Shown here: positions 46,551 through 50,216 of the stretch, one piece after another
Numbering within the stretch: the first letter of the stretch is position 1
Layout of the letters: the number at the start of each line of letters is the position of its first letter
Assembly: GCF_006345805.1 (NCBI RefSeq)
Contig: NC_043026.1
Coordinates: 12,441,579 to 12,505,578 of the forward strand
Direction of reading: 5' to 3'
Length of the DNA stretch: 64,000 nt
Source: Octopus sinensis
Taxonomy: Eukaryota
Program-made: the position numbers and the translations under genes
The notes under the pieces: model-generated
What the model saw: the letters and a program-made list of their open reading frames with translations, nothing else
Database searches by the model: none
Told to the model about the DNA's origin: nothing

Positions 46551-47978
46551 TGATATGGCTTCTCTCCTGTATGTGTACGGATGTGTCTGGTTAAGTCTCC
46601 AGTATCAGTGAATGATTTATCACAGATATCACACTGATATGGTTTTTCTCCTGTATGAGTACAGATGTGTCTGGTTAAGTCTCCAGTATCAGTGAATGAT
46701 TTACCACAGATATCACACTGATATGGTTTTTCTCATGTATGAGTACAGATGTGTCTGGTTAAGTCACCAGTATCAGTGAATGATTTACCACAGATATCAC
46801 ACTGATATGGTTTTTCTCATGTATGAGTACAGATGTGTCTGGTTAAGTCACCAGTATCAGTGAATGATTTACCACAGATATCACACTGATATGGTTTTTC
46901 TCCTGTATGTGTACGGATGTGTCTGGTTAAGTCTCCAGTATCAGTGAATGATTTACCACAGATATCACACTGATATGGTTTTTCTCATGTATGAGTACAG
47001 ATGTGTCTGGTTAAGTCACCAGTATCAGTGAATGATTTACCACAGATATCACACTGATATGGTTTTTCTCATGTATGAGTACAGATGTGTCTGGTTAAGT
47101 CTCCAGTATCAGTGAATGATTTACCACAGATATCACACTGATATGGTTTTTCTCATGTATGAGTACAGATGTGTCTGGTTAAGTCACCAGTATCAGTGAA
47201 TGATTTACCACAGATATCACACTGATATGGTTTTTCTCATGTATGAGTACAGATGTGTCTGGTTAAGTCTCCAGTATCAGTGAATGATTTACCACAGATA
47301 TCACACTGATATGGTTTTTCTCATGTATGAGTACAGATGTGTCTGGTTAAGTCACCAGTATCAGTGAATGATTTACCACAGATATCACACCGATATGGTT
47401 TTTCTCATGTATGAGTACAGATGTGTCTGGTTAAGTCACCAGTATCAGTGAATGATTTACCACAGATATCACACTGATATGGTTTTTCTCCTGTATGTGT
47501 ACGGATGTGTCTGGTTAAGTCTCCAGTATCAGTGAATGATTTACCACAGATATCACACTGATATGGTTTTTCTCCTGTATGTGTACGGATGTGTCTGGTT
47601 AAGTCTCCAGTATCAGTGAATGATTTACCACAGATATCACACCGATATGGTTTTTCTCATGTGTGAGTACAGATGTGTCTGGTTAAGTCGACAGTATCAG
47701 TGAATGATTTACCACAGATATCACACTGATATGGTTTTTCTCCTGTATGAGTACAGATGTGTCTGGTTAAGTCGACAGTATCAGTGAATGATTTACCACA
47801 GATATCACACCGATATGGTTTTTCTCCTGTACGAGTACAGATGTGTCTGGTTAAGTCACCAGTATCAGTGAATGATTTACCACAGATATCACACCGATAT
47901 GGTTTTTCTCCTGTAAGAGTACAGATGTGTCTGGTTAAGTCACCAGTATCAGTGAATGATTTACCACAGATATCACAA
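46551..47978 (-). repeat. Zinc-finger minisatellite: 17 x 84-bp units encoding [18 protein letters not shown](C/R)THT(G/*)EKPYQ
   Basis: Exact 84-bp periodicity; the linker codon GGA is replaced by TGA in 9 units; out of frame with ZNF gene 5. Confidence 0.92.
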
Positions 47979-50216
47979 TCAAGGATTCTCGCCTGTATGA
48001 ATACATTTGTGTGTAGTTAACTGATTACTAGTAGAGAATGATTTACCACAGGTATGACAGTCATATGGCTTCTCTCCTGTATGAATACGTTTATGTTTAG
48101 AGAGACAATCATTTCTAGCGAATGATTTACCACAGATATTACACTGATATGGCTTTTCACCTGTATGATTATGTTTATGATTAGTGAGACCCTCCTTTCT
48201 AGAGAATGATTTACCACAGATATCACACTGATATGGTTTTTCTCCTGTGTGAGTACGGATGTGTCTGGTTAAGTCACCGGTAGCAGTGAATGATTTACCA
48301 CAGATATCACAGTGATGAGGATTCTCACCTGTATGAATACGCTTGTGTATACTTAATGCACTACTTGTAGCGAATGATTTACCACAGATAATACACTGAT
48401 ATGGCTTCTCTCCTGTATGAATACGTTTGTGTGTAGTCAAGTCAGTACTTTTAGAGAATGATATACCACAGATATCACAATGATACGGCTTCTCTCCTGT
48501 ATGAATACGCATGTGGACAGTTAAGTCCGAAGTATTAGAGAATGATTTATCACAGACGTCACAGTGATATGGTTTCTGTTGAGCATGAATATATTTGTGT
48601 GAAGATAGGTTACTTAATTGAGTGAATGATTTACCACAGATATCACAATGAAATGTCTTTTCCTGCGTATGAATGCATTTGTGCATACGTAAAGCCGTTA
48701 AGTGAGAGAATGATTTACTACAGACATCACAACGATGTGGTTTTTCACCTGTGTGAATGCGTATGTGAACAGTTAAACCAATCTTTTGAGAGAACGATTT
48801 ACCACAGATATCACAATGATGTATCTTTTCCCCTGTATGAATACGTTTGTGAGTACGTAAAGAGGTTAAATGAGAGAATGATTTACTACAGACATCACAA
48901 TTATGTGGTCTTTCCCCTGTATGAATACGTATGTGAACGGTTAGGTCAATTTTTCGAATGAATGATTTACCACAGATATCACACTGATGTGGTTTGTTGC
49001 CTGTATGACTACGTTTATGACTAGTGAGACCATCATTTCTAGAGAAGGATTTACCACAGATATCACACTGATATGGCTTTTCTCCTGTATGAATACGAAT
49101 GTGTTTGGTTAAGTCACCAGAAGCAGTGAATGATTTACCGCAGATATCACAGTGATGAGGATTCTCTCCTGTATGAATACGTTTGTGTGCAGTCAAGTCA
49201 CTACTTCTAGAGAAGGATTTACCACAGATATCACAATGAAACGGCTTCTCTCCTGTATGAATACGCATGTGGACAGTTAATTCTGAAGTATTAGTGAATG
49301 ATTTACCGCAGACATCACAGTGATATGGTTTCTGTTGCATATGAATGTATTTGTGTGAAGATAAATTATTTAACCGACTGAATGCTTTACCACAGATATC
49401 ACAATGGTATATCTTTTCCCGTGCATGAATGCATGTGTGCAGACGTAACGCAGTTAAGTGAGAGAATGATTTATTACAAACACCACAATGGCATGGTTTT
49501 TCACCTGTGTGCGAGCGTATGTGAACAGTTAAACCAACCTTTTGAGAGAATGATTTACCACAGATATCACACTGATATGCCTTTTCTCCTGTATGAATAC
49601 GATTGTGAGTACGTAAAGAAGTCGTGTGAGAGAATGATTTACCACAGACATCACAATGATATGGTTTTTCTCCTGTATGAATGCGTTTGTGTGTGGTTAG
49701 GGTACTTCTTTGAGCGAATGATTTACCACAGATATCACACTGATGTGTCTTTTCCCCTGTATGAGTACGTTTGTGAGTATGTAAATTAGTTAAATGAGTG
49801 AATGATTTATTACAGACGTCACAATTATGGGGTTTTTCTCCTGTGTGAATACGTATATGAATAGTTAGACTGAACTTTTGAGAAAAGGATCTTCCACAGA
49901 TATCACAGCGGTACGGTTTTGCCCCTGTGTGAACACATTTGTGAGTATATAATTTAATTCTTTGAGAGAATGATTTACCACAGACACCACAATGATATGG
50001 CTTCTTGCCCACATGAATGTTTCTATGTTTAGCTAAGCAATTCTTTTTAGAGAATGATTCCCCACAAATATCACAGTGATATGGTTTCTCACTCCTATTA
50101 ATACACTCATGTTTAATGAGGTTACTTTCCAGAGAAAATGATTTTTGACAGATACCACAATGGTATGAGGATTTTTCAGTCACTTTCTGCATCTCTTCAA
50201 CAAAATAATAAATCAA
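47979..50216 (-). CDS. Poly-C2H2 zinc-finger protein, ~26 finger repeats (ZNF gene 5)
   Basis: 745-aa ORF (track start is TTG; first ATG is MQKVTEKSS at ~50192); ends at HTGENP* through an apparent 2-nt deletion before the minisatellite. Confidence 0.92.

What the first reader, a model, noticed from the sequence alone, without database searches (positions are those of the whole stretch)
46551..47981. Homogenised 17 x 84-bp zinc-finger minisatellite after the ZNF5 stop, with a propagated TGA
Seen: ZNF5 ends at CCT TGA TTGTGAT, an apparent 2-nt loss relative to CCT-xxx-xxx-TGT-GAT. It is followed by 17 near-identical fingers related to its own ATGDLTR finger (~48225-48310). The same GGA>TGA linker stop occurs in 9 units (46735, 46819, 46987, 47071, 47155, 47239, 47323, 47407, 47659), interspersed with open units, and the first two units lose the last His. 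Established: PRDM9-type finger arrays evolve as minisatellites by unequal exchange; the helix DTGDLTR (D-1, D3, R6) predicts a GCC triplet. Inference: finger-level amplification continued after coding was lost, giving a snapshot of how these arrays grow, a possible finger reservoir, or alleles encoding a (GCC)n binder. Speculative: A-to-I editing (UGA>UGG), extensive in coleoids, could recode the stops, but the frameshift would still need bypassing.
Basis: partly seen in the sequence, partly recalled or inferred. Interest (0 to 1): 0.75.

Follow-up and report, generated by a model that had tools for sequence, protein, structure and literature searches.

The report
Dead zinc-finger minisatellite behind octopus gene
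One zinc-finger unit lying just past the stop codon of an octopus DNA-binding gene has been copied 17 times, broken copies included, which looks like ordinary repeat turnover in non-coding DNA rather than a new protein.

Summary
Seventeen exact 84-bp finger units (96% alike) follow the stop of a 26-finger octopus C2H2 gene, out of frame, and 9 carry one TGA. The unit derives from that gene's finger 23. The inference that copying went on without coding holds even if the 2-nt loss is an assembly error, because reading would stop in unit 4. Of the 8 non-silent changes, 3 hit the last zinc-binding His or make the stop, against 0 of 45 in the gene's older finger duplicates; none falls at helix -1, +3 or +6. 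No PR/SET or KRAB match was found upstream, and the same 64 kb holds 18 other young tandem arrays. It turns over like the PRDM9 minisatellite but is not PRDM9; the closest precedent is the stop-ridden ruminant PRDM7 array. Editing rescue is unlikely, since the target A has a 5' G. A cryptic in-frame splice could bypass the frameshift but adds at most 3 fingers. Public contigs were too fragmented to confirm the junction or the copy number. Best reading: a neutral, finger-derived minisatellite in a 3' untranslated tail. Modest interest.

The parts
46550..47977 (-). Array of 17 x 84-bp C2H2 finger units, helix DTGDLTR, out of frame with ZNF5; unit-type order A B C D E E F G H G H G E G G I J
47979..50192 (-). 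ZNF5 reading frame from its first Met (737 aa, 26 fingers; stop-to-stop frame begins at 50234); Pfam zf-C2H2 families; lacks the MENEL-type leader of ZNF1/2/4
47978..47984 (-). Junction: Pro codon, TGA stop at 47981-47979, linker 2 nt short
   Evidence: not resolved in public contigs
48228..48311 (-). ZNF5 finger 23 (helix ATGDLTR), closest relative of the repeat unit (79 of 84 nt)
   Evidence: exact match in contigs of runs X1, X4, X12 (records 5, 29, 12)
46733..47659 (-). Span of the nine GGA>TGA units (4, 7-12, 14, 15), all on the Cys (HICTH) background; the change also removes the AG of a cryptic acceptor-like site
47474..47641 (-). Units 5 and 6, type E (intact finger, only silent differences from the inferred ancestor); the same type recurs as unit 13 (46969-46886)
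46550..46633 (-). Unit 17, edge unit with 4 private changes and a different linker
46527..46549 (-). Decayed remnant of a further finger with two stops in the array frame
   Evidence: reading by eye
46330..46526 (-). Interspersed repeat abutting the array (27 of 30 BLAST hits in the window are 80 bp or longer, self-hit included); SINE label is recalled

Best explanation
The array is a neutral minisatellite made from a dead finger in the 3' untranslated tail of a clustered octopus C2H2 gene. Shown: a near-copy of finger 23 sits just past the ZNF5 stop and exists as 17 units of two lineages, an intact Arg type and a Cys type that gained a stop and His losses, plus mosaics of the two. Inferred: once two near-identical units lay side by side, slippage or unequal exchange and gene conversion added units and spread point changes, the TGA among them, with edge units left out. 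No selection on a protein is needed; the DNA of this region duplicates short segments readily. The protein most likely made is the 26-finger ZNF5 ending at ENP*.
For: One identical stop in 9 of 17 units, so copying occurred into sequence already behind a stop, whatever the junction status. 3 of 10 biallelic site pairs show all four gametes, and 2 of 5 pairs with the triallelic site exceed tree-compatible counts (read). Neighbouring units are more alike than shuffled order (2.56 vs 3.34 differences, p 0.016), and all 7 private changes lie in units 1, 2, 4 and 17. Disabling changes are 3 of 8 non-silent changes in the array against 0 of 45 in 8 old ZNF5 finger pairs, Fisher p 0.0024 (I chose the categories after seeing the data). 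ZNF1, 2, 4, 5 and 6 all stop at codon 25-27 of the last unit, ZNF4 at the same codon as ZNF5, and ZNF1 and ZNF4 have finger-like relics behind the stop. 18 of 69 TRF rows are other young arrays (period 40 or more, matches 90% or more; 11,377 bp). An 84-nt contig of run X4 (organism B, RNA only guessed) matches unit 1 over 81 nt with 1 difference, so the unit type exists outside this assembly (record 25).
Against: Crude ratios of non-silent to silent change do not separate the array (8/66 vs 5/18 sites, about 0.44) from ZNF5's old duplicates (about 0.58; my arithmetic). The E-type units differ from the inferred ancestor only by silent changes, which fits a coding past. The lack of change at -1, +3, +6 is not significant against ZNF5 (0 of 8 vs 8 of 45, p 0.33). 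The assembly shows patchy 1-nt indel noise elsewhere (53 gaps vs 33 substitutions in a 5.8-kb duplicate). No contig listed bridges the junction, and two X1 contigs carry extra letters behind 47983. Only one allele was seen.
Confidence: 0.72

Rival explanations
1. The array grew while coding, under selection for a repeated GCC-reading tail, and this allele is a later knock-out; open alleles may segregate.
For: All 17 units keep Asp at -1, which differs from Ala in finger 23 and so arose before amplification. The 4 Arg units (5, 6, 13, 17) are intact fingers and the three E units differ from the inferred ancestor only silently. D-1/D3/R6 reading GCC is recalled from the engineered-finger code and was not tested.
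Against: The stop-bearing type is the majority (9 of 17) and the most homogeneous part of the array (units 7-15), so the latest copying favoured dead units. No protein with TGDLT among the 358 other proteins fetched; best identity to the open units was 75% among the 120 listed of 1276 hits.
Confidence: 0.1
2. The striking features are assembly products: copy number or mosaic order made by long-read consensus and polishing. A milder form is that only the 2-nt loss is an error, which would add 4 fingers (2 without the last His) and leave units 5-17 non-coding.
For: The 5.8-kb duplicate 10147-15966 / 21005-26846 differs by 53 gaps (46 of 1 nt, 30 in homopolymers) against 33 substitutions. The junction could be a run of four T shortened to two. 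The best run holds only 0.52 of the sampled words.
Against: No indel in 1428 nt of array or in 26 ZNF5 fingers. Polishing would flatten units, yet 10 types and an edge gradient persist. The unit type is present in another organism's run. No contig showed the two-T form (table 4).
Confidence: 0.1
3. The array is reached in translation by RNA processing. An exitron-like splice from the G|GTAAAT site in a finger (e.g. 48046) to the ACAG|GA site of an open unit (e.g. 47911) is phase 1 to phase 1 and bypasses the frameshift; A-to-I editing of UGA is the weaker alternative.
For: Donor-like sites are in almost every finger and acceptor-like sites in the 8 open units; unit 1's His>Leu change gives it the most pyrimidine-rich acceptor of the 14 listed. 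The join this splice produces (CxxCG-EKP) occurs in 2 of 21 octopus-labelled proteins and 0 of 337 others. Exitron splicing affects C2H2 domains of five human KRAB-ZNFs (PMC4484396, one passage).
Against: A single splice adds at most 3 fingers, 2 with the last His, before a TGA. The two octopus joins may be gene-model patches. None of the 15 joints shown (200 more not shown) is such an intron. Editing needs an A with a 5' G, the least favoured context, and would give Trp, not Gly; folding z -1.45.
Confidence: 0.06

Closest known systems
PRDM9 zinc-finger coding minisatellite (Oliver 2009 PMC2779102; Buard 2014 PMC3890296)
   Same: 84-bp units, nearly all pairs above 90% identity (132 of 136; Oliver's measure), interdigitated unit types, distinct edge units.
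   Different: Non-coding; no SET or KRAB match upstream; no variation at -1, +3, +6; stops are internal and amplified, whereas in wild-mouse Prdm9 the three stop repeats lie in last position.
Ruminant PRDM7 finger array (Ahlawat 2016 PMC4874674)
   Same: 84-bp repeat array with several stop codons and lengths that differ between species (627, 710, 960 bp; passages).
   Different: PRDM7 inherited its array from a PRDM9 duplicate; here the array arose from one finger of an ordinary multi-finger gene. The passages read do not show one stop spread across units.
Coleoid clustered C2H2 zinc-finger genes (Albertin 2022 PMC9068888; Holzinger 2025 PMC12513265; Wells 2023 PMC10547256)
   Same: Host gene and neighbours are multi-finger C2H2 genes in a cluster; the leader of ZNF1/2/4 matches Octopus database proteins.
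   Different: The passages read deal with gene-level expansion; none mentions finger-level minisatellites.
Ordinary minisatellite / VNTR (general knowledge)
   Same: Head-to-tail units, mosaic variants, edge effect; 18 other young arrays in the window.
   Different: The unit is an exact protein-domain module; length polymorphism was not shown here.

Membership tests
PRDM9 | PR/SET, KRAB and SSXRD domains upstream of the finger array | tested here: not met
   0 Pfam families in 47 of 47 stop-to-stop frames of 45 aa or more on the minus strand 50235-61080; tblastn with the N-terminal parts of 10 fetched SET/KRAB proteins showed only finger-region hits in the visible output. Exons under 45 codons would be missed.
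PRDM9 | Homogenised finger array (most pairs above 90% identity) | tested here: met
   132 of 136 pairs
PRDM9 | Diversity concentrated at DNA-contact positions -1, 2, 3, 6 | tested here: not met
   0 of 8 non-silent changes at -1, +3, +6; 1 at +2 in units 3-4
PRDM9 | Array in one open reading frame with the rest of the protein | tested here: not met
   Frameshift at 47978-47981 and 9 stops
PRDM9 | High allelic diversity in unit number and order | not testable with these tools
   All 24 runs listed are short-contig sets; no whole genome held
Minisatellite (VNTR) | Head-to-tail units of 10-100 bp with high identity | tested here: met
   17 x 84 bp, 96.0%
Minisatellite (VNTR) | Variant shuffling by exchange or conversion | tested here: met
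   Incompatible site pairs; neighbour similarity p 0.016
Minisatellite (VNTR) | Variable copy number among individuals | tested here: inconclusive
   Contig depths differ between runs but are no copy number
Coleoid clustered C2H2 genes (host gene) | Tandem C2H2 fingers with TGEKP linkers in a gene cluster | tested here: met
   26 fingers, Pfam PF00096 and PF13465; five more multi-finger ORFs in the window
Coleoid clustered C2H2 genes (host gene) | Expression | tested here: inconclusive
   Finger 23 is exact in contigs of X4 and X12, whose RNA status is only guessed

The most novel reading that the evidence does not exclude
The array is a length- and order-polymorphic cassette that is sometimes read. 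Every finger carries phase-matched cryptic donor and acceptor sites and the TGA change deletes the acceptor, so open and closed units would act as a heritable code for which DTGDLTR fingers are spliced onto ZNF5, and frame-open alleles would give a protein with a variable-length GCC-repeat-reading tail. That would be a PRDM9-like fast-changing DNA-binding module in an ordinary cephalopod ZNF gene.
Probability: 0.08. Interest if true: 0.65.

Novelty: new variant of a known kind. Interest (0 to 1): 0.3.

Why it matters
If the best reading holds, it is a clean natural control: a finger array can reach PRDM9-grade homogeneity with no protein and no PRDM9 gene, so homogeneity alone should not be used to call PRDM9-like function in invertebrates. 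It also catches the finger-level copying that builds the long octopus arrays, separated from selection. This is useful to specialists but not surprising. It would matter much more if open alleles or spliced forms were found.

Tried and rejected
Whole genome: none held, so no genome-wide count of such arrays. Orthologue searches found none: 413-1315 aa; best 120 of 7999 listed, all generic ZNFs, 60% identity at most; 60-193 aa; best 120 of 6187, 64% at most; 42-137 aa; best 120 of 1276, 75% at most. Lengths 194-412 and above 1315 aa were not searched for the ZNF5 tail. A unit-specific pattern gave 0 matches in metagenome contigs. One search listed 24 runs, all contigs; shares of 0.52 or less say little because contigs break in repeats. 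laid 4 of the 24 runs on 47894-48730 only (unit 1 plus fingers 26 to 18), so the array as a whole was not examined. It was swamped by paralogues (5,481-18,036 records laid per run; 42,839 pieces not shown). Depth in the bin 47894-47921 was 397 (X1), 63 (X2), 19.5 (X4) and 4.8 (X12), against 37-74, 70, 5.5 and 14.9 for exact ZNF5 pieces. This hints at many copies in X1 and few in X2, but summed contig depth is no copy number, so it is not used as evidence; X1 may be the source sample. The two X1 contigs with A or CA behind 47983 give neither an N-P-x-x linker nor the two-T form and may be paralogues. In one search two of the five gap tests (257-bp array, ZF array) returned trivial self-matches and were dropped. 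Editing rescue rejected as unlikely. A survey of fetched proteins found 3 of 156 with five or more near-identical fingers and none with eight (biased sample). Albertin 2015 was not held. No structure prediction was run, as the fold is known.

Full report
What is there. The window is an octopus-type C2H2 zinc-finger cluster with six long finger ORFs. The organism is inferred from Octopus database proteins that share the finger style and the MENEL leader; the species was not determined. ZNF5 lies on the minus strand, has 26 fingers and ends ...HTGENP* at 47979. Directly behind it, shifted by a linker that is 2 nt short, lie 17 units of exactly 84 nt (47977-46550). They are 96.0% alike on average, fall into 10 sequence types and differ at 12 columns. 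The other arrays of the window are 67-75% alike inside.

Origin of the unit. The nearest finger is ZNF5 finger 23 (79 of 84 nt to an open unit), then finger 13 (75 of 84). ZNF5 itself contains an older block duplication (fingers 8-14 against 17-24, 71-77 of 84 nt), and fingers 13, 23 and unit 1 each follow an ENP linker. So the unit is a younger local copy of finger 23. Two changes are shared by all 17 units, one of them Ala to Asp at helix -1. After that the units split into an intact Arg type (5, 6, 13, 17) and a Cys type (13 units) on which the stop, both His losses, Gly>Val and Gln>Arg arose. Behind unit 17 come a 23-nt finger remnant and an interspersed repeat.

How it changed. One stop in nine units needs one mutation and at least eight copying or conversion events, all into sequence behind a stop. 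This holds even if the junction were open, because reading would end in unit 4 at 47659. Three of 10 biallelic site pairs show four gametes and 2 of 5 pairs with the triallelic site exceed what a tree allows (read), so units have exchanged parts. Neighbours are more alike than in shuffled order (p 0.016) and all 7 private changes are in units 1, 2, 4 and 17. This is minisatellite behaviour. The mechanism itself, slippage or unequal exchange with conversion, is inferred from general knowledge.

Is it under coding constraint? Of 13 codon changes, 7 are missense, 1 nonsense and 5 silent. Three of the 8 non-silent changes remove the last His or make the stop. In 8 older ZNF5 finger pairs, none of 45 amino-acid changes touches a zinc ligand (Fisher p 0.0024; categories chosen after seeing the data). 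Against this, crude non-silent to silent ratios are similar in the two sets (about 0.44 and 0.58), and the E units differ from the ancestor only silently, so a coding past for one copy is plausible. No change falls at -1, +3 or +6, but the contrast with ZNF5 is not significant (p 0.33).

Context makes it less strange. ZNF1, 2, 4, 5 and 6 all stop at codon 25-27 of their last unit; ZNF4 stops at the same codon as ZNF5, and ZNF1 and ZNF4 have finger-like relics behind the stop. Dead fingers in the 3' tail are thus usual here. The window also holds 18 other young tandem arrays covering 11,377 bp. No AATAAA or ATTAAA lies between 48000 and 46181, so a canonical transcript would carry the array as 3' UTR; this is inferred.

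Assembly check. A 5.8-kb duplicate in the window differs by 53 gaps, mostly single bases, and only 33 substitutions, which looks like leftover long-read error in patches. The 2-nt loss could be a shortened T run, so it is perhaps one in five an error. The array and ZNF5 are otherwise free of indels. Public data did not settle it. All 24 runs listed are contigs. Laying 4 of them on 47894-48730 gave mostly paralogues and no listed piece across the junction. It did show finger 23 exact in X1, X4 and X12, and an 84-nt X4 contig (a second organism label, RNA only guessed) matching unit 1 at 80 of 81 nt. The unit type is therefore real. Two X1 contigs carry extra letters behind 47983; neither restores an N-P-x-x linker.

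Routes to translation. Editing of UGA needs an adenosine with a 5' G, the context ADARs avoid (PMC11019741, passages; squid sites have similar neighbour preferences, PMC4384741, passages), and five units fold no better than shuffles (z -1.45, 7 of 100). A more concrete route is splicing: fingers contain G|GTAAAT and ACAG|GA in the same phase, the resulting CxxCG-EKP join appears in 2 of 21 octopus-labelled proteins and 0 of 337 others, and exitrons are known in human C2H2 genes (PMC4484396, one passage). The TGA change removes that AG. From this allele one splice would add at most 3 fingers, so no long GCC-repeat binder can be made from it. The GCC assignment for D-1/D3/R6 is recalled, not tested.

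Comparison. It works like the PRDM9 minisatellite in its turnover and meets Oliver's identity measure (PMC2779102, passages). It is not PRDM9: no SET or KRAB match in 47 upstream frames, no open frame, no diversity at contact residues (about half of the diversity sits there in salmonid PRDM9, PMC11703093, passages). Stop repeats in wild-mouse Prdm9 are terminal (PMC3890296, passages). Ruminant PRDM7 arrays with several stops and variable length are the nearest precedent (PMC4874674, passages). Cephalopod ZNF papers were read as abstract and passages (PMC12513265) or passages (PMC9068888; PMC10547256); bioRxiv 10.1101/848366 passages concerned PRDM9 only. Searches for a prior description gave nothing on octopus: 5 listed of 6, all PRDM9; 1; 0; 15 listed of 53, unrelated by title; 1, unrelated. 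The library lacks most subscription papers and Albertin 2015; no supplements were read, and gene lists in them could bear on novelty.

Verdict. A real and neat case of a finger-derived minisatellite that spreads a stop codon, most likely neutral (0.72). New variant of a known kind; interest 0.3. The bold reading, a polymorphic and splice-selectable finger cassette, is not excluded (0.08) and is testable with long reads.

Noticed in passing
window 10147-15966 and 21005-26846: 5.8-kb duplicate holding identical 14-finger ORFs (ZNF2, ZNF3); 53 gaps against 33 substitutions, but no difference in 11647-13147. Either a very recent duplication or a false duplication with patchy long-read error.
   Followed up: partly
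window 1929-61038 (18 arrays, e.g. 16196-19009, 33617-34456, 57970-58918, 59546-61038): High density of young tandem arrays with units of 46-337 bp; 12 of the 18 have under 3 copies and most units are 150-260 bp. Biological slippage or assembly joins not told apart.
   Followed up: no
window 50192-50300 and 62574-62720: ZNF5 and ZNF6 lack the MENEL start of ZNF1/2/4; the leader is broken by stops and the first Met lies in an EEM motif 11 codons before finger 1 in ZNF5. A short upstream out-of-frame ATG precedes it.
   Followed up: partly
fingers throughout the window; proteins P0155, P0187: Phase-matched donor-like and acceptor-like sites in octopus fingers; two Octopus gene models show the finger-skipping join. 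Could be a general exitron route in cephalopod ZNF genes or a gene-prediction habit.
   Followed up: partly
window 48228-49571: Older block duplication inside ZNF5 (fingers 8-14 against 17-24, 85-92% identity), i.e. two scales of finger copying in one gene.
   Followed up: partly
window 5065-7250: Broken finger fragments (5065, 6492-6660, 7164) downstream of ZNF1; the one at 5065 repeats the helix of the ZNF1 finger at 3540.
   Followed up: no
window 51463: Single C2H2-like motif on the plus strand at the end of a probable LINE remnant (label recalled) upstream of ZNF5.
   Followed up: no
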